Below the pieces are notes generated by a model that saw only the letters and a program-made list of their open reading frames with translations, was not told where the DNA came from and made no database searches. A stretch of 64,000 bases of DNA from an uncultured Halanaerobiales bacterium (GTDB taxonomy: Bacteria > Bacillota > Halanaerobiia > Halanaerobiales > M55B127), in contig CAYSHP010000005.1 of NCBI GenBank assembly GCA_964430875.1, forward strand, positions 8,740 through 72,739. The letters run 5' to 3'. The stretch's first letter is position 1. Each line of letters opens with the position of its first letter. The translations under genes were made by a program, and so were the position numbers. Of the stretch, positions 4,703 through 10,720 are shown piece after piece.

Positions 4703-5905
4703 TTAAAAATTAATGTTATCAGTTTTAATTATTAGCTTTTTTGCCCTTAAATATTCCATGAATATATCGATAGCTTCTCTTATCTTTTTATTGATATCTG
4801 AGTTTGCTTTACAATCTGATTCCCACCACCAATTTTTAACTGTGAATACTTTTGTTTCTTTATCATATTTCGGTTCAAAACGACCAATAAATCTATCTCC
4901 ATATAAGACTGGTAGTACATAATATCCATATTTTCTTTCATCAATTGGTTTATATACTTCCCATTTATAAGCAAAGTCAAATATATCACTAATCATATTT
5001 CTATTCCAAATCAAATTATCTAGAGGTGCTATAAAAGAAACTTTATTTTCATATTCTACACCTGAAATTACTTTATTTAAAAGATTTTCTTCCTCTTTTC
5101 TAATATAATAAGTTCTTTTTAAACCTTTTATATTAATAGGTATTAGTTTATTTGCTCTTTTTAATTTATCAATAGCCTGGTTTCTGTGTTTCTTTTTCAT
5201 ACCTTTGATACCTAACCAGGTAGTTTCTGATAAATTTCTTATTAAACCAATACTTCCGGTTCTCCTTAATAGATGCCAAGTGAAATAATCTTGTTTTGAA
5301 GCAAATTCTTTTTCAATTGAATATATTTTATCAGGTAAATATTTATAAGCTAAACCATATATTTTTTTGGTACCTTTTCGATGATGAATTATTAATTCTC
5401 CCCACTTGTACATCGACTCTAAGATTACTTTACTTATTCTAGCCGGAGACCAGGACCAATTTACTTTTGTATCAAAATTTAAATCAGTAGAAGATAGAGG
5501 ACCTTTTTTATTTAATATATCCCTAACTTTTGGAATTAAATTTTTGACTTTATTATTAGCTTCCTTATAATATTTTTGATAAGCTTCTTTACGATATTTT
5601 GCAAAAAAGGGGCGATCATTTATTGAATATATGGACTTGTTTTTATCCCATCCTTCTATTAACTTTCTTTCTTTGTACATAATATGTTCCGCCATCGCTT
5701 TTTTATAATTTTTTACTCTAGCCTGTAAAACTAAATGATGGTTTTCTCCTACTTGATCAAGAGGATCATATTGAATACATCCCACTTTATTTATATAATT
5801 TAAAACGCCCTTTTCTCCTTTAAGTTTTCGGGGAAAAAGCAAATTTTGATGACTTAATAAAAACTCTCTAGCTTGATTTTTATTTATGCTGTATTTAATA
5901 TTCAT
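4703..5905 (-). CDS. ycaQ: YcaQ/AlkZ-family DNA crosslink-repair glycosylase (winged helix)
   Basis: IQYDP (QxD motif), FIAPLDNLIWNR and YKWEVYKP...RKYGYYVLPVLYGDRFIGR. Confidence 0.85.
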   Translation of the reverse strand: MNIKYSINKNQAREFLLSHQNLLFPRKLKGEKGVLNYINKVGCIQYDPLDQVGENHHLVLQARVKNYKKAMAEHIMYKERKLIEGWDKNKSIYSINDRPFFAKYRKEAYQKYYKEANNKVKNLIPKVRDILNKKGPLSSTDLNFDTKVNWSWSPARISKVILESMYKWGELIIHHRKGTKKIYGLAYKYLPDKIYSIEKEFASKQDYFTWHLLRRTGSIGLIRNLSETTWLGIKGMKKKHRNQAIDKLKRANKLIPINIKGLKRTYYIRKEEENLLNKVISGVEYENKVSFIAPLDNLIWNRNMISDIFDFAYKWEVYKPIDERKYGYYVLPVLYGDRFIGRFEPKYDKETKVFTVKNWWWESDCKANSDINKKIREAIDIFMEYLRAKKLIIKTDNINF

Positions 5906-5922
5906 CTAAAACATCCTTGCTG

Positions 5923-6717
5923 TTATTTATTTTTTTCAATAGTAATTTGTGCTCTATCATTAAAGAAACTATTCATACCCCACTTTACCATTAAGTAAAC
6001 TGTTAAAGTTACACTACCTAATATCCCCATCATAATAGCAATTTGGTATTTAATTGCTGTTAATGGGGCTGCCCCTGCCAGTATTTGACCGGTCATCATA
6101 CCAGGTAAAAAAACTATCCCCATGCCTATCATGGAATTAATAGTAGGTAATACTGCATTATAAAAAGATCTATTTTGAATTTCTTTTGTGGCTGCTTTAG
6201 GAGTAGCTCCTAACATCAAAGCATTTTCAATTCTTTCTTTATTATCATTTACACCGGTAATTAATCCTTGCGCACCTAATGAAATTCCAGTCATAGAATT
6301 ACCAATTAACATCCCTGATATAGGGATAAAATACTGAGGCATAAACCAGGGATCAATATTTATGACAATAAATAGGAAGAATAAAATACTAGTTAAAGTA
6401 CCGCCGAACATTGAAATACCAATGATTAATTTTAAGTTACTTGATAATTTTCTTTCTACCCTTGAATAAATATTAAAGATCGCAAATATTTCCATAACTA
6501 ATAAAATCAAAATAGTAATATAGGGATTAGGGTTTTCAAAAACATAGGTTAAAACATAACCAACTAAAACCAGCTGAATCGTCATTCTAAAAGAAGCAAT
6601 TATTATCTGTTTTTCATGGCCAATCTTTTCATTTTTAACAATAAATAATAAAATCATAACAAAAATATAGGCTATCACCAAATTTATAATAGATATATCA
6701 AATATTGTGTCTGTCAT
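5923..6717 (-). CDS. fetB: ABC transporter permease, UPF0014/FetB family
   Basis: RMTIQLVLVGYVL, IPISGMLIGNSM, LPGMMTGQILAG and AIKYQIAIM motifs. Confidence 0.9.
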   Translation of the reverse strand: MTDTIFDISIINLVIAYIFVMILLFIVKNEKIGHEKQIIIASFRMTIQLVLVGYVLTYVFENPNPYITILILLVMEIFAIFNIYSRVERKLSSNLKLIIGISMFGGTLTSILFFLFIVINIDPWFMPQYFIPISGMLIGNSMTGISLGAQGLITGVNDNKERIENALMLGATPKAATKEIQNRSFYNAVLPTINSMIGMGIVFLPGMMTGQILAGAAPLTAIKYQIAIMMGILGSVTLTVYLMVKWGMNSFFNDRAQITIEKNK

Positions 6718-6732
6718 AAAATACTCTCCTTT

Positions 6733-7368
6733 TTAATTTATCTTATCAAGTTCACCTTCATTAATAGTTATAATCTGGTCCCCATATTTATTGGCAATTT
6801 CTTTAGAATGGGTAACCATAATTAAAGTACCATTTTTTTCTTTGATACACTTTACTACCATCTCTATTATTAATCTTTCAGTTTCTTCATCTAAAGCTGA
6901 AGAAGGCTCATCTAAAAGTAATATATCCGGATCAAGGATTAAAATGCGAGCTAATGCTAATCTTTGTTTTTCTCCTCCCGAAAGTTTTTCTGCATCATCA
7001 TCTAAATTTTGCTCTTTTAAACCAACTTTATCGAGAATTTTATTATACTTTTCATCTGACATAGCATATTCATCGTTATAATTTAAAGTCACCGTGAAAT
7101 TATATCTTATAGTACCTGAAAAAATTATTGGATTTTGCGGAAGCATAAGTACTTCTCTTCTTAATTTTATAGGATTATATTCACCTATACTTTGACCTTT
7201 AAATTTTATCTGGCCACTATCTGGACTCACCATATTATTTAACAACCTTAAAAAAGTCGATTTTCCTCCACCACTACGTCCCACAATACAAGTTATTTTT
7301 CCTTCATTAATTGTAAGATCATCTATCTTAAGAATATCTTTATACTTAACATTATATAATTCAAACAT
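6733..7368 (-). CDS. fetA: ABC transporter ATP-binding protein, FetA-like
   Basis: GRSGGGKST, LSGGEKQR and LLLDEPSS. Start moved to ATG 7368, which follows RBS GGAGGG. Confidence 0.85.
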   Translation of the reverse strand: MFELYNVKYKDILKIDDLTINEGKITCIVGRSGGGKSTFLRLLNNMVSPDSGQIKFKGQSIGEYNPIKLRREVLMLPQNPIIFSGTIRYNFTVTLNYNDEYAMSDEKYNKILDKVGLKEQNLDDDAEKLSGGEKQRLALARILILDPDILLLDEPSSALDEETERLIIEMVVKCIKEKNGTLIMVTHSKEIANKYGDQIITINEGELDKIN

Positions 7369-7491: not shown

Positions 7492-9387
7492 TTATTCCTC
7501 TTTTATGACCGGATAATCAATTAAAGACATATAATCTTGTAAAGTTCCTTTAGATAAGAAACAATCAATTATTTTTTTACCTAAAGGTAAAAGCTCATCT
7601 CGATCATAATTTTTTAAGTAATCTTCAAAAAATTCTCTTAAGATTTCTGCACCTTGATCAAAAGCCTTTTTACCTACTTCAGGCTGATTTTGTACCTTTA
7701 ATAATTCTCTCTCAATCATCTGACCTTCTACCATGACATCTTTTAAAGCATAACCTAAAAGTGGTAATCTGGCCGGTTCAATCTGTTTTTCAGTAAACCA
7801 GGCTCCTCCTCGACGGGCTAAATATTCACGGGCAATCCATTCAGGCATAAAGCCAACATTCCAGGAGCCAATATATTGATTTGGGCATAAAATATACTTT
7901 ACTTCGGGTGAATCTACTATTTGTTTCAATAGGATATTAGCCTGATCAATTTTACGCCCTGTTGCAAAAGGCCAGTAAGAACCTACCCCTTCTGAACTCA
8001 TGCCTTCCGAATCATTGATACTTGGATTCCCATGTCCTCTAGGAGATACTAATCTCCAAAGCCAAGCTAAAGCGGGTGGTAAAACATGAAATAATCCTAA
8101 AATTCCATAGGTAGGATTTTCCTTAGTACAAGGGGGAGTTCGTACTCCAAACCCTCTCACATCTATATTTACTTCTCCCTCAATTACACCCGGTACATCA
8201 TCTCTAGGAATAACTACTCTCGGATTAGGACAAGATTTACCTGGTTCATCTTCTATATGTTCCCATATTAAAGCAGTACTATTTGGTGCAGCATCAATAT
8301 TTAAAAATAATAATGGGCTTTCTGGATGACAGGTAATTGATTCCAGATGAGGATCTACCCCATACTGTTCAATATGGTCTACTCTCACAAACCAAGCATT
8401 TTCTGCATCTTTTAAAGTTAATTTACCATTACCTGATTGCAGATAAGAAGGGGTTACTGCCATATCATCAGCAATTGGTCTTAAACTACAACCCTGAGGT
8501 AATGTTATTTTATATTCATCACCAGTTACAATATTTTCACCAAGCTTAATTCTACCGCTTCTTTCCCGATGCATATCCTGCAACATCTCTGATTTGCCGG
8601 CACCACTGGCACCTTCATAAGCTATATTTAATTTATTATCATAAGGGGTAACGACTTGTACAGCGGAACAATGTAAAGTAGGCCATTCATTTTTCTCCCC
8701 CAAATTAATTAACATACTATATACACCTTTTTTAGCACTAGGACCAGGATAAAGATTATAGCTAAAAAGTTCGTAGTTATTTTTTAAACGATTATGTACT
8801 ACTACCTGATCTCCTTCAAAGTGAGTATATCTAAAGGGAGGAGCCACAAAGATATATCCTTTCGGTTTAATTTCTTTTTCTATATTATCTAATTTTTTTA
8901 TCCCCTGTAGTAAAGAAAGTCCAAAAGCAAAAAAGCCTGCATTAGCAGGGGCAATAGCCATTACCGGATAATTTAAATTCTCCGGACCAGCTTCAAATAA
9001 AAATGCGACAAGGGATTGATTTTTTAACCATGCAAAGGTTTCCTGCCTAATATTTTCAAAATCTTCATCAAATCTTTCTTTGAATCTTTCTTTATCAGTA
9101 GGATAATCATCTGCTATCACCATACAATCAGGGTCCCTTCTTCTCATATAGGGTTCAGTGAAATTAGCAGCTATACCATTTCTTGCTTTACAAACCCTAG
9201 CATCAACCACTTCTTCTCCATTCTCTAGATGATAAGTTACATCTTTTTGACCATCCTGACTGTTCTTTAAAGATAATTTTCTTAACGTTTCAACTTCATC
9301 TACAATTTGAAAATCAGAACATTCTTCAATAATTTTTTGCATTGGTTGTGATAAATTAAAATCATTTAAAATTTCTTTTGTCTTCAT
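7492..9387 (-). CDS. DUF4914 family protein (PEP carboxykinase-like, P-loop)
   Basis: RRRDPDCMVIAD, YEGASGAGKSEM P-loop, IADDMA and CPNPRV. Start ATG 9387 follows RBS GGGAG; the track's extension to 9435 runs into the IS end. Confidence 0.75.
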   Translation of the reverse strand: MKTKEILNDFNLSQPMQKIIEECSDFQIVDEVETLRKLSLKNSQDGQKDVTYHLENGEEVVDARVCKARNGIAANFTEPYMRRRDPDCMVIADDYPTDKERFKERFDEDFENIRQETFAWLKNQSLVAFLFEAGPENLNYPVMAIAPANAGFFAFGLSLLQGIKKLDNIEKEIKPKGYIFVAPPFRYTHFEGDQVVVHNRLKNNYELFSYNLYPGPSAKKGVYSMLINLGEKNEWPTLHCSAVQVVTPYDNKLNIAYEGASGAGKSEMLQDMHRERSGRIKLGENIVTGDEYKITLPQGCSLRPIADDMAVTPSYLQSGNGKLTLKDAENAWFVRVDHIEQYGVDPHLESITCHPESPLLFLNIDAAPNSTALIWEHIEDEPGKSCPNPRVVIPRDDVPGVIEGEVNIDVRGFGVRTPPCTKENPTYGILGLFHVLPPALAWLWRLVSPRGHGNPSINDSEGMSSEGVGSYWPFATGRKIDQANILLKQIVDSPEVKYILCPNQYIGSWNVGFMPEWIAREYLARRGGAWFTEKQIEPARLPLLGYALKDVMVEGQMIERELLKVQNQPEVGKKAFDQGAEILREFFEDYLKNYDRDELLPLGKKIIDCFLSKGTLQDYMSLIDYPVIKEE

Positions 9388-9422
9388 AATATACTCCCTA
9401 CTTTCTACTTTTTTGGTGTTAT

Positions 9423-9770
9423 AGATTTTGTACATAAAACCTGATGGGCTTACTCTCAGGATGTAAGTGCTATTTTAAAAATAATTCGATATTATTTTTT
9501 AATATGATATATTACTAATAAGTTAAGGTGAATCTAAAAACTGAATATATGGAGTTGCAATAGGAATTGAAGCGATAACCAAGCTCCTCTATTGCGTAAA
9601 ATATTCAAGGTATCAGAATTCCTTAATCGTCAGTACCGTAGGGCATACGGGATTTTAAGCCTCTAGAGAAACTGTAAGACCTAATTTTTACTTGATACTT
9701 AATATCAAATAAGAATAGGCTCGTTTCTAGGAATGAAGAATCCTCGTGGGCTTGCCCCGAGGAAAGTCAA
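9423..9770 (+). mobile_element. Non-autonomous IS200/IS605-family element (internally deleted tnpB derivative)
   Basis: Left hairpin CCTGATGGGCTTACTCTCAGG (9440-9460) and right hairpin CCTCGTGGGCTTGCCCCGAGG (9742-9762). GAAT at the right hairpin foot and TCAA terminus (9767-9770). TTAT target motif at 9419-9422. Residual TnpB C-terminal codons TVGHTG at 9635-9652. Confidence 0.8.
9485..9513 (+). promoter_or_regulatory. IS-internal promoter candidate (TTCGAT-17-TATATT, extended -10 TG)
   Basis: Points toward the right end and is followed by the relic RBS AAGGTGA. Confidence 0.45.
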
Positions 9771-9790
9771 TAAAAAGATTACCATCTTGC
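9630..9790 (+). ncRNA. Putative omegaRNA/reRNA scaffold plus flanking guide
   Basis: TnpB-3'-end-type sequence ACCGTAGGGCATACGGG...GCCTCTAGAGAAAC...GTAAGACC...AGGCTCGTTTCTAGG...GAAGAATCC with complementary segments, ending at TCAA. Boundaries are approximate. Confidence 0.5.
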
Positions 9791-10720
9791 TCTATAACCT
9801 CTGGTGTCTATATGAATAAAGGGACTATGAGATACCGTTTTACGATAAGAACTCAAACCCCCTATAAACTCTTTGTACTCTCTTCTTTGAGAAGATTCTT
9901 CAACTGTCTCGTAAAGTATATCCGCATCTCTTAAGTTTACTTTGCCATCTCCATTTAAATCATCCATCTGACCATCTTTAGGTCTAACATCAATATAGAT
10001 ATCAGCAGCATCTCCAAAAATATGTCTACTGTATTTCACATTACCTAATGAACTGTTATAAAAAGGGGTACGATAACCACTCATGATATGAAATGTATTA
10101 GCATTAAATCCTTTTTCATTAATTTTAAGTAATAAATATTCTAATTTGTTCAGTAATAACTCCTGTATGACTATATATTTTGGATAATTACTCGGTTGTT
10201 TACAAATAAATTGTCTTAATTGAAAATGAGGAGTTAAATAAGTATCTTTATTTTGTCTAGTTACTTTTATAAAACCCTTTGGCAAAGTATAATTTTCACT
10301 TTTACTTGCTGGTATTCTGGGATAATATCCAATTCGATAACCATTTAGATAGCCATTCTTTAAATTATTATAGGGTTCTAAAACAAAAACATTAATTTTT
10401 ATTTTTTCATTAGTTTTTTCATCAGTAACCCAAATATTATAATTTCCAACTTTGTTAGGGGTTTTCATAACCCATTCATCTTTGTTTTTAATGATCATCT
10501 TTAAATTATTGTGACTGACCTTATAATTATCATTAAATTTAGGATTATATACATTCAAGGTAATATTCTCACCCGGTAATACAAAAATACTATAAATTTC
10601 ATGAGAAATTAAAGTATTATTATAAACTAATCTAAAGCTAGAATTTCCTTCATTAAAAGCTGCTGCTGGTATTGATAGATAAATTAATATAAATAAAGCT
10701 ATTAATATTTTTTTAGTCAT
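9779..10720 (-). CDS. Peptidase M15 family D-Ala-D-Ala/L,D-endopeptidase (YcbK/MepK-like, long exported form)
   Basis: MSGYRT, SRHIFGDAADI and FIHIDTRG zinc motifs; signal peptide. Confidence 0.85.
   Translation of the reverse strand: MTKKILIALFILIYLSIPAAAFNEGNSSFRLVYNNTLISHEIYSIFVLPGENITLNVYNPKFNDNYKVSHNNLKMIIKNKDEWVMKTPNKVGNYNIWVTDEKTNEKIKINVFVLEPYNNLKNGYLNGYRIGYYPRIPASKSENYTLPKGFIKVTRQNKDTYLTPHFQLRQFICKQPSNYPKYIVIQELLLNKLEYLLLKINEKGFNANTFHIMSGYRTPFYNSSLGNVKYSRHIFGDAADIYIDVRPKDGQMDDLNGDGKVNLRDADILYETVEESSQRREYKEFIGGLSSYRKTVSHSPFIHIDTRGYRARW

What the first reader, a model, noticed from the sequence alone, without database searches (positions are those of the whole stretch)
9419..9790. 348-bp mini IS200/IS605 element with intact end-recognition code and omegaRNA-type scaffold but no protein
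Seen: two related subterminal hairpins; right end GAAT(9738-9741)-hairpin-TCAA(9767-9770); left end AAAA(9436-9439)-hairpin preceded by TTAT(9419-9422); relic TnpB codons TVGHTG; an internal promoter candidate. Known: in ISHp608/ISDra2 a GAAT guide pairs with the TCAA cleavage site, and the right end encodes the TnpB omegaRNA whose guide is the flanking DNA. Applying the IS608 pairing rule to AAAA predicts TTAT, which is present 13 nt upstream. Inference: a mobilisable non-autonomous element that may still make a guide RNA (TAAAAAGATTACCATC...) for a TnpB supplied in trans, targeting the empty allele.
Basis: partly seen in the sequence, partly recalled or inferred. Interest (0 to 1): 0.65.

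Follow-up and report, generated by a model that had tools for sequence, protein, structure and literature searches.

The report
Protein-less mini IS605 carrying guide RNA
This is a 348-bp protein-less derivative of an IS200/IS605 insertion sequence (a PATE-like element) that keeps both transposase-recognition ends and the guide-RNA (omegaRNA) scaffold of its TnpB-encoding parents; it is a clear example of a kind of element that has already been described.

Summary
Window 9423-9770 is a non-autonomous IS200/IS605 element inserted 3' of TTAT (9419-9422) between two co-directional genes of an uncultured Halanaerobiales bacterium.

- Both ends match full-length IS605 elements that encode TnpA (Y1) and TnpB, in Halanaerobium congolense and in a Halanaerobiales MAG.
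- Related mini copies at other sites stop being similar exactly at GTTAT| and TCAA|. They occur in Natroniella acetigena (at least 3), Halonatronum saccharophilum and the same MAG.
- Seven related genomes have the same gene pair with only a short spacer (about 18-75 nt) and no element.
- The IS608 guide/cleavage pairing rule fits both ends and holds across 119 related right ends.
- The last 139 nt are homologous to the sequence just downstream of tnpB in the parents. They fold into a shared structure (29 pairs, 10 with compensatory changes).
- Relatives of the element appear in several salt-lake metatranscriptomes.

Corrections:
- 'TVGHTG' is not coding in this lineage. It is an RNA stem-loop, translated only in cyanobacterial TnpBs.
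- The window copy carries private changes in the left hairpin and one broken scaffold pair.
- No intact tnpA or tnpB was found in the window or at matching depth in its metagenomes.

PATEs that carry omegaRNAs are already described, so this is a new member of a known kind.

The parts
9419..9422 (+). TTAT: target and left cleavage site (C_L), also the expected TnpB TAM. It is flanking DNA, not part of the element. A G precedes it (GTTAT) in every copy that has an intact left end.
   Evidence: Similarity among copies and full-length elements begins right after GTTAT. One copy (L252) has GTTGT. The IS608 rule predicts TTAT from guide AAAA.
9423..9770 (+). 348-bp non-autonomous IS200/IS605 (PATE-like) element.
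   Evidence: 82.6% identical over its whole length to L050:6220-6609 (Natroniella acetigena), with similarity ending at both boundaries. Absent from the orthologous locus in 7 related genomes. Metagenome contigs diverge into different flanks right after 9770.
9436..9439 (+). Left guide tetranucleotide AAAA (G_L), directly 5' of the hairpin foot.
   Evidence: Same position and sequence in L050b, L122, L252, L002 and L067. IS608 has AAAG pairing with TTAC (PMC3201880).
9440..9460 (+). Left subterminal imperfect palindrome (IP_L): CCTGA-T-GGGCTTACTC-TCAGG, with an unpaired T.
   Evidence: Homologous to the left-end hairpins of relatives, with compensatory stem changes (CCTGA/TCAGG, CCCGA/TCGGG, CCAGA/TCTGG). 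The window has private changes at 9452 and 9454 that weaken the upper stem.
9486..9513 (+). Promoter-like site (TCGATA, 16-nt spacer, TG-extended TATATT). It probably corresponds to the parents' left-end promoter and here would drive the RNA.
   Evidence: Consensus scan. The -10 region is conserved in all six mini copies, including those with a truncated left end. Function is inferred.
9520..9631 (+). 5' RNA module specific to the mini family. It includes the stem 9557-9563 / 9589-9595 (GCAATAG/CTATTGC).
   Evidence: About 95% conserved among copies from three cultured genera. L212 shows compensatory and G:U changes in the stem. Relatives carry optional hairpin modules of 42, 34 and 51 nt at fixed points. 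nhmmer finds no significant similarity to the tnpB 3' coding region.
9632..9770 (+). omegaRNA-homologous scaffold and right end: stem-loop 9636-9650, long-range helices 9660-9738, inner hairpin 9692-9708.
   Evidence: Aligns with the sequence that starts 13 nt after the tnpB stop codon in L067, L002, L294, L043 and L256. RNAalifold gives 29 pairs, 10 with compensatory changes; the window keeps 28 of 29. 9694/9706 is a private compensatory A-T to G-C change.
9738..9741 (+). Right guide tetranucleotide GAAT (G_R).
   Evidence: Same as IS608. The rule g1:c2, g2:c1, g4:c4 fits 86 of 119 related right ends, against a mean of 44 and a maximum of 57 in 1000 permutations (PMC3201880).
9742..9762 (+). 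Right subterminal imperfect palindrome (IP_R): CCTCG-T-GGGCTTGCCC-CGAGG.
   Evidence: Exact 21-mer in more than 120 loci. DNA fold z -3.3. Compensatory changes in the mini copies.
9767..9770 (+). TCAA: right cleavage site (C_R / TEM) and last bases of the element.
   Evidence: Sits 4 nt after the hairpin foot in all GAAT-class relatives. The L067 contig ends exactly here.
9771..9786 (+). Right flank TAAAAAGATTACCATC: the predicted 16-nt guide if the RNA reads through, as in characterised TnpB omegaRNAs. It overlaps the stop codon (9779-9781) of the peptidase gene on the minus strand.
   Evidence: Inference from the known TnpB mechanism (PMC10055086). RNA contigs of relatives run past TCAA into differing flanks.

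Best explanation
Window 9423-9770 is a PATE-like, non-autonomous IS200/IS605 element.

Origin: it descends from an IS605-type element (small RHH-like ORF, tnpA, tnpB) by loss of all coding sequence.

What it keeps:
- The left end, with guide AAAA, the hairpin and a promoter region.
- A roughly 110-nt structured 5' RNA module.
- The 139-nt scaffold and right end that lie just downstream of tnpB in the parents.

Insertion (shown by comparison): it inserted as single-stranded DNA 3' of TTAT, in the short spacer between an M15-like peptidase gene and a DUF4914 gene.

Mechanism (inferred from IS608, ISDra2 and ISGst work):
- A Y1 TnpA supplied in trans would bind the two hairpins.
- The cleavage sites TTAT and TCAA would be located by pairing with AAAA and GAAT.
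- The top strand would then be excised and re-inserted.
- Transcription from the element's own promoter would give an RNA of about 250-270 nt that ends in the right flank.
- A TnpB supplied in trans could use that RNA to cut the TTAT-flanked empty site and restore the element by homologous repair.

I put about 0.85 on the identity. I put about 0.4 on this particular copy still being mobilisable or used as a guide RNA in its present host.
For: - Full-length relatives with Y1_Tnp TnpA and TnpB (OrfB_IS605, Cas12f1-like TNB, HTH_OrfB_IS605) share both ends.
- There are six mini copies in four genomes at unrelated sites, with boundaries exactly at GTTAT| and TCAA|.
- Seven related Halanaerobiales genomes keep the peptidase-DUF4914 pair with only a short spacer (about 18-75 nt) and no element.
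- The guide/cleavage rule is supported statistically and agrees with IS608 crystallography and biochemistry.
- The scaffold is homologous to the sequence downstream of tnpB, with 10 covarying pairs.
- A private compensatory change at 9694/9706 preserves a hairpin.
- DNA depth is 3-10 times higher inside the element than in its flanks, and many different flanks follow 9770.
- Several independent salt-lake and lake-water metatranscriptomes hold contigs 88-100% like 9533-9681 and 9715-9770, some at depths of hundreds to thousands. None covers the flanking genes next to the element (9000-9400, 9800-9900).
- The literature states that PATEs often encode omegaRNAs acted on in trans by TnpB (PMC10055086). 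A 271-nt PATE-like element is described in Halanaerobium hydrogeniformans (PMC7290912).
Against: - No tnpA or tnpB is in the 64-kb window.
- In the metagenomes that hold this genome, the only relatives of the two reference elements (L067 and L002) at matching depth are deletion derivatives.
- The window copy has private substitutions in the left hairpin (9452, 9454) and a broken C-G pair at 9737.
- All 8 assemblies examined (of 13 contigs on record), and the Logan contigs that reach the site, show it occupied. No same-species empty allele or excision joint was seen.
- The RNA evidence comes from assembled contigs of related copies. It carries no strand information and does not come from this locus.
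- Rfam 15 has no match.
- The 5' module has no detectable parent sequence.
Confidence: 0.8

Rival explanations
1. Same origin, but now an inert fossil. The element is fixed at this site, can no longer be mobilised and makes no functional guide RNA in this host. Its conservation only reflects a recent arrival.
For: - Private changes weaken the left hairpin, and one scaffold pair is broken.
- No intact tnpA or tnpB is in the window or at matching depth in the source metagenomes.
- The site is occupied in every assembly and run examined.
- Two relatives (L121, L212) have already lost the left hairpin.
Against: - The guide and cleavage tetranucleotides, the right hairpin and 28 of 29 scaffold pairs are intact.
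- A private double substitution at 9694/9706 is compensatory, which argues for selection on the structure.
- Relatives are abundant in metatranscriptomes.
- TnpBs more than 20% divergent from the two references used would have been missed.
Confidence: 0.3
2. A domesticated or free-riding stand-alone RNA gene. On this reading the mini family is kept for its RNA and not for transposition: a self-promoted guide RNA or small RNA used by a TnpB or a TnpB-derived protein. Alternatively it acts as an antisense RNA on the 3' end of the neighbouring peptidase gene.
For: - Interior conservation is very high across Natroniella, Halonatronum, the ASO31 MAG and this organism.
- Indels take the form of whole hairpin modules.
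- Stem changes include G:U pairs, which matter only at the RNA level.
- Copies with a truncated left end still keep the promoter, the RNA and the right end (L121, L212).
- RNA contig depth is high.
- The 5' module has no detectable counterpart in the parents.
Against: - Most copies keep complete transposition ends and sit at unrelated sites, as mobile DNA does.
- Flanks, and therefore guides, differ between copies, with no conserved target.
- No partner protein was identified.
- Contig depth is a poor measure of expression.
Confidence: 0.1
3. A host cis-regulatory leader (riboswitch or attenuator) of the DUF4914 gene, or a REP/RAYT-type repeat, and not an IS derivative.
For: It is intergenic, structured, and lies directly upstream of the DUF4914 start on the opposite strand.
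Against: - Orthologous loci lack it.
- Copies lie at unrelated loci in other genera.
- Both ends match tnpA+tnpB elements.
- Rfam has no hit.
- The hairpins are in direct, not inverted, orientation, with IS608-type guide/cleavage sites.
Confidence: 0.03

Closest known systems
PATEs (palindrome-associated transposable elements) of IS200/IS605. Examples: the PATE-like elements of Geobacillus stearothermophilus (Meers et al. 2023, PMC10055086) and the 271-nt PATE-like element of Halanaerobium hydrogeniformans (PMC7290912).
   Same: - It has no protein.
- It keeps the left-end and right-end subterminal hairpins of an IS605 family.
- It keeps the tnpB-proximal right-end sequence, i.e. the omegaRNA region.
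- It is presumed to depend on TnpA and TnpB in trans.
- It comes from the same bacterial order as the H. hydrogeniformans case.
   Different: - This family carries about 100 nt of left end with a conserved promoter-like site.
- It also carries a roughly 110-nt structured 5' module with no detectable similarity to tnpB. The H. hydrogeniformans PATE keeps 28 nt of left end and the last 58 nt of tnpB.
- It is found in at least four genomes of different genera, with modular hairpin indels.
IS608 of Helicobacter pylori (IS200/IS605 family; Y1 TnpA with guide/cleavage recognition).
   Same: - The right-end code is identical: G_R GAAT with C_R TCAA.
- The left-end code differs by one compensated position: AAAG/TTAC in IS608, AAAA/TTAT here.
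- Both have imperfect palindromes with an unpaired T.
- The cleavage site is upstream of the left hairpin and downstream of the right hairpin.
   Different: - The spacings differ. Here 17 nt separate the left cleavage point from the hairpin foot, against 19 nt in IS608. Here TCAA starts 4 nt after the right foot, against 10 nt in IS608 as given in PMC3201880.
- The hairpin sequences are unrelated.
- This element has no genes.
TnpB omegaRNA / reRNA (ISDra2, ISGst elements).
   Same: - A structured RNA is encoded at the right end.
- It starts near or in the 3' end of tnpB and would end in flanking DNA, which supplies the guide.
- The TAM equals the transposon target motif.
   Different: - Here the RNA gene stands alone, with its own promoter-like site and no adjacent tnpB.
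- No Rfam family matches.
- Binding and guide function are untested.

Membership tests
IS200/IS605 non-autonomous derivative (PATE) | Subterminal imperfect palindromes at both ends in the same orientation, with no terminal inverted repeats | tested here: met
   Direct repeat 9437-9461 / 9739-9763. Each arm forms a hairpin with an unpaired T.
IS200/IS605 non-autonomous derivative (PATE) | Insertion 3' of a fixed tetra- or pentanucleotide, without target-site duplication | tested here: met
   (G)TTAT precedes the element in the window, L050b, L122, L002 and L067; L252 has GTTGT. The flanks GGTGTTAT and TAAAAAGA share no repeat.
IS200/IS605 non-autonomous derivative (PATE) | Cleavage sites complementary to 4-nt guides 5' of each hairpin foot (IS608 rule) | tested here: met
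   GAAT pairs with TCAA and AAAA with TTAT. The rule fits 86 of 119 related right ends, against a mean of 44 and a maximum of 57 in permutations. The rule was checked against PMC3201880.
IS200/IS605 non-autonomous derivative (PATE) | Ends homologous to an autonomous element that encodes a Y1 (HUH) TnpA | tested here: met
   L067 and L002 both carry Y1_Tnp (E 8e-42) and TnpB between matching left and right ends.
IS200/IS605 non-autonomous derivative (PATE) | No protein-coding capacity | tested here: met
   The longest ORF is 37 aa, and tblastn with TnpA, TnpB and RHH is negative.
IS200/IS605 non-autonomous derivative (PATE) | Evidence of mobility: several copies at different sites, and empty sites | tested here: met
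   Six copies in four genomes. Seven orthologous loci have no element. Depth is raised and many different flanks are seen in metagenomes. No same-species empty allele was found.
IS200/IS605 non-autonomous derivative (PATE) | Excision and integration by TnpA supplied in trans | not testable with these tools
   This needs an excision assay. No intact tnpA was found in the window or at matching depth.
TnpB omegaRNA | Encoded at the right end, beginning at or near the 3' end of tnpB | tested here: met
   9632-9770 aligns with the sequence that starts 13 nt after the tnpB stop codon in L067, L002, L294, L043 and L284.
TnpB omegaRNA | Conserved secondary structure supported by covariation | tested here: met
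   29 pairs, 10 with compensatory changes, across 4 mini and 6 full-length sequences. The window keeps 28 of 29. The right-hairpin covariation could equally serve TnpA binding to DNA.
TnpB omegaRNA | Transcribed, with the 3' end reaching into the flank (the guide) | tested here: inconclusive
   Metatranscriptome contigs of related copies cover the scaffold and run past TCAA into differing flanks. They carry no strand or end information and are not from this locus.
TnpB omegaRNA | Bound by TnpB and directs TAM-dependent DNA cleavage | not testable with these tools
   This needs biochemistry or a plasmid-interference assay.
Rfam RNA families (all 4227, including any TnpB/IscB-associated motifs in release 15) | Match to a curated covariance model | tested here: not met
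   There is no hit at gathering score in the window. There is no relevant hit at E<=10 in 9200-10000, or at E<=1 in L067, L122, L121, L212 and L256.

The most novel reading that the evidence does not exclude
The mini family is not just debris. It would be a self-promoted, structurally elaborated stand-alone omegaRNA gene: a 5' module, optional hairpin modules and the TnpB scaffold.

On this reading it spreads between Halanaerobiales genera as an RNA-only hitch-hiker that exploits both TnpA (to move) and TnpB (to home) of autonomous elements. It would also be retained and highly expressed after its left end is lost, which would mean it has been taken over for a host or TnpB-linked function.
Probability: 0.15. 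Interest if true: 0.6.

Novelty: new member of a known kind. Interest (0 to 1): 0.33.

Why it matters
- It adds a well-delimited example of a protein-less IS605 derivative that keeps a complete omegaRNA scaffold and its own promoter-like site. It is conserved across genera.
- This supports the view that the DNA ends, the guide RNA and the two proteins of these transposons are separable modules that can work in trans.
- For annotation, it explains an otherwise puzzling 390-nt spacer, and it explains why assemblies break here.
- The family offers natural variants (modular hairpins, compensatory changes) that could help define the minimal RNA scaffold for this TnpB clade.
- It does not change current understanding.

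Tried and rejected
- Rfam, at gathering score on the whole window and at permissive E-values on the region and on five related loci. The only hit on the region was a chance snoRNA-like one; the related loci gave only an unrelated tRNA and a lysine riboswitch.
- Second copy in the window: none. This was tested by mismatch search, repeat search and a covariance model built from the scaffold.
- tnpA, tnpB or the RHH gene in the window: none.
- Idea that 9520-9631 is a decayed tnpB 3' coding end. By eye it resembles VKDLKIREW...HDRDINA. Global alignments give z below 2.1 against seven of eight tnpB ends (z 4 for one, L286). An nhmmer profile of 18 tnpB 3' ends finds nothing. Rejected as unsupported.
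- 'TVGHTG' as relic codons. It is non-coding in the Halanaerobiales parents and coding only in cyanobacterial TnpBs.
- Same-species empty allele or excision joint in 12 public runs. None was found. The one contig that skips the region (X5, 9409->9945) belongs to a related species.
- Riboswitch or leader reading, and REP/RAYT reading. Both are rejected on comparative grounds.
- Intact parent in the source metagenomes. Only deletion derivatives were seen at matching depth. This covers relatives at least 80% like L067 or L002 only.

Full report
**Observation**

The region lies between two minus-strand genes. One is a DUF4914 protein (7492-9387, 631 aa). The other is an M15-like peptidase (9779-10720, 313 aa).
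- TTAT at 9419-9422.
- AAAA at 9436-9439, followed by the hairpin CCTGATGGGCTTACTCTCAGG at 9440-9460.
- GAAT at 9738-9741, followed by the hairpin CCTCGTGGGCTTGCCCCGAGG at 9742-9762.
- AAAG, then TCAA at 9767-9770.

The two hairpin regions form a 25-nt direct repeat at 72% identity. The right hairpin is far more stable than shuffles (z -3.3). The left one alone is not (z -1.0). No second copy exists in the 64-kb window by mismatch search, repeat search or covariance model. No tnpA or tnpB is in the window either. Rfam has nothing.

**Relatives**

The exact 21-nt right hairpin occurs in more than 120 loci of public genomes, from Flavobacteriaceae to Halanaerobiales.

The closest contexts (GAAT-hairpin-NNNG-TCAA) are in Halanaerobiales. 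Two of them are complete IS605-type elements:
- L067 is a 2074-bp contig of Halanaerobium congolense. It begins at GTTATAG and ends at TCAA.
- L002 is from a Halanaerobiales MAG from Salar de Ascotan.

Each encodes a small RHH-like ORF, a Y1 transposase (Pfam Y1_Tnp, E 8e-42) and a TnpB (OrfB_IS605, Cas12f1-like TNB, HTH_OrfB_IS605). Their left ends (GTTAT|AGAnTTTATCGnCAGAAAACCAGATGGGCTTGCCCTCTGG) and right ends align with the ends of the window element.

**Other mini copies and boundaries**

The interior of the window element is not in those parents. It recurs in the following places:
- Natroniella acetigena: L050:6225-6609, L122:5297-5753 and L252:1952-2464.
- Halonatronum saccharophilum: L121.
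- The ASO31 MAG: L212, from the same MAG as the full-length L002.

L050b is 82.6% identical over the whole element. Similarity starts right after GTTAT and ends at TCAA.

Both hairpins show compensatory changes between copies. Copies differ by three whole-hairpin modules of 42, 34 and 51 nt. The window copy and L212 have none of them. L121 and L212 lack the left hairpin but keep the promoter region, the RNA part and the right end.

**Insertion**

The window belongs to an uncultured Halanaerobiales bacterium that has been assembled repeatedly from salt-pond soil metagenomes and as MAG GCA_035269185.1. All 8 assemblies examined, of 13 contigs on record, have the same spacer of about 390 nt.

In seven related Halanaerobiales genomes (DUF4914 80-90% identical) the two genes are adjacent, with only a short spacer (about 18-75 nt) and no element. 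Removing 9423-9770 leaves about 22 nt between the conserved ribosome-binding region of the DUF4914 gene and the peptidase stop codon, which is in that range.

The spacers are too divergent to test the junction base by base. No same-species empty allele or excision joint was seen in the public runs. In those runs the depth rises 3-10 times inside the element. Contigs also leave the window sequence right after 9770 into many different flanks, as expected for a multi-copy element ending at TCAA.

**End-recognition code**

From the 119 right ends in hand I derived a pairing rule. Guide base 1 pairs with cleavage base 2, guide 2 with cleavage 1, and guide 4 with cleavage 4. Cleavage base 3 is usually A.

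The observed guide/cleavage classes are:
- AATG with TTAC.
- AATA with TTAT.
- GATA with TCAT.
- CATA with TGAT.
- CATG with TGAC.
- GAAT with TCAA.

The rule fits 86 of 119 loci. When guides are permuted among loci the mean is 44 and the maximum 57.

It agrees with the IS608 structure work: C-3 pairs with the first and T-4 with the second base of G_R, A-2 is unpaired, G_L is AAAG for TTAC, and C_R is TCAA (PMC3201880). Applied to the window, GAAT gives TCAA and AAAA gives TTAT. Both are present at the right places.

**The RNA part**

The last 139 nt (9632-9770) align with the sequence that begins 13 nt after the tnpB stop codon in the Halanaerobiales parents. RNAalifold was run on four mini and six full-length sequences. 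It gives a stem-loop (9636-9650), long-range helices (9660-9738) and the right hairpin. That is 29 pairs, 10 with compensatory changes. The window keeps 28 of 29; C9661/A9737 is broken.

A degenerate pattern for the first stem and the following conserved stretch finds more than 119 loci in Halanaerobiales, cyanobacteria, Mageeibacillus, Succinivibrio and others. In cyanobacterial TnpBs that stem is translated as ...TVGHT(E/G)..ACGE... in the C-terminal tail. In Halanaerobiales it lies after the stop codon.

The 5' part (9520-9631) is about 95% conserved among mini copies. It has a stem with compensatory and G:U changes (9557-9563 / 9589-9595). It has no significant similarity to the tnpB 3' coding ends, so its origin is open.

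A promoter-like site with a TG-extended -10 (9486-9513) is conserved in all copies.

**Expression**

Nine metatranscriptome runs (eight from salt lakes, one from lake water) hold exact 31-mers of the element. Six of them were laid on the window. Contigs 88-100% like 9533-9681 and 9715-9770 are present, some at depths of hundreds to thousands. Nothing covers the flanking genes next to the element (9000-9400, 9800-9900). Several contigs run past TCAA into other flanks.

This shows that family members are transcribed in nature. It says nothing about strand, ends or this particular copy.

**State of this copy**

Twelve positions are private to the window copy:
- Two (9452, 9454) weaken the upper stem of the left hairpin.
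- One (9737) breaks a scaffold pair next to the right guide.
- Two (9694/9706) are a compensatory A-T to G-C change that keeps a hairpin.

In the metagenomes that hold this genome, the relatives of L067 and L002 at matching depth are deletion derivatives. One has a tnpA-tnpB internal deletion. Another is a right end with only the last ~220 nt of tnpB. Intact-looking pieces occur only at about a tenth of that depth. Whether a working TnpA or TnpB is available to this copy is therefore unknown.

**Comparison with what is known**

Protein-less IS200/IS605 derivatives (PATEs) are well known. Meers et al. state that PATEs often encode omegaRNAs that must be used in trans by TnpB from other elements (PMC10055086). 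A 271-nt PATE-like element (28 nt of left end, the last 58 nt of tnpB, and the right end) was described in Halanaerobium hydrogeniformans (PMC7290912).

The present element meets every sequence-level criterion for this class that could be tested. Activity could not be tested. It is a new member of a known kind.

The features that go slightly beyond the published cases are:
- Its own conserved promoter-like site.
- A structured 5' module of unknown origin.
- Modular hairpin variants.
- Spread across genera.
- Retention of the RNA part in copies that have lost the left end.

**Verdict**

Interest is modest.

Noticed in passing
L122:5177-5850 (Natroniella acetigena Nacet_14): A mini-element copy (5297-5753) sits inside the lysine-riboswitch leader of a lysA-like gene (ORF 5829-7148). 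Rfam Lysine scores 50.1 bits over 5177-5354, and the alignment uses element left-end bases (ATAGAATT, AGTGCTATTTT) as the 3' strands of P5 and P1. The pre-insertion sequence GGTTAT|GAGGTTGTCTCATAACTTTTTT looks like the terminator hairpin, with the GTTAT target in its 5' arm. It is open whether the riboswitch still works, or works because of the element.
   Followed up: partly
L067:~185-346 and the equivalent in L002: The full-length parents carry a 53-aa ORF between the left end and tnpA (MKNVQINISIPENWKDELENLARIYSVEEESTLTYLDLMRRAIQEKYELD...). It weakly matches ribbon-helix-helix CopG (Pfam RHH_1, E 0.0024, below the cut-off). It could be a transposon-encoded regulator.
   Followed up: partly
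L001-L120 (for example L006, L007, L018, L022): The 21-nt hairpin CCTCGTGGGCTTGCCCCGAGG is identical in more than 120 loci from Flavobacteriaceae, Verrucomicrobia, Saccharibacteria, Halanaerobiales and others. In Flavobacteriaceae it ends tnpA-only IS200-type elements and many protein-less double-hairpin repeats. The guide and cleavage tetranucleotides covary while the hairpin stays fixed.
   Followed up: partly
L020, L032, L059, L068, L087, L116 (Halanaerobium and Bacillota MAGs): This is a second protein-less class: GTGATAGArGT.A.AGTCTGCTnGCAAA-hairpin-AGGGTCAA, with no tnpB upstream. Its 4 nt before the hairpin (CAAA) do not fit the guide/cleavage rule.
   Followed up: no
L229, L219, L273, L304, L244 and others (cyanobacteria), compared with L067, L002 and L284: The same omegaRNA stem motif (GTNGGGCNNAC) is read as the TnpB C-terminal tail ...TVGHT(E/G)..ACGE in cyanobacteria. 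It lies 13 nt after the stop codon in Halanaerobiales. This is a case of one RNA element being coding in one clade and non-coding in another.
   Followed up: yes
window 9533-9669 (run X30): A metatranscriptome contig like 9533-9669 is flanked directly by Illumina adapter sequence on both sides, so it is a 137-nt insert. This may hint at a discrete processed RNA species from a related copy.
   Followed up: no
runs X1-X3, laid on L067:1-2074 and L002:170-2215: At the depth of the window genome, the only tnpA/tnpB relatives are deletion derivatives. One has a joint from 619 to 928 in L067 coordinates. Another is an L002-type right end with only the last ~220 nt of tnpB. The IS605 population in this community looks heavily decayed, as was reported for H. 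hydrogeniformans.
   Followed up: partly
window 9771-9786 and 9779-9781: The element's RNA would run antisense into the last codons and the stop codon of the M15-like peptidase gene. The element also splits what looks like a two-gene operon in relatives (spacer only about 18-75 nt). Possible effects on expression of the DUF4914 gene were not examined.
   Followed up: no
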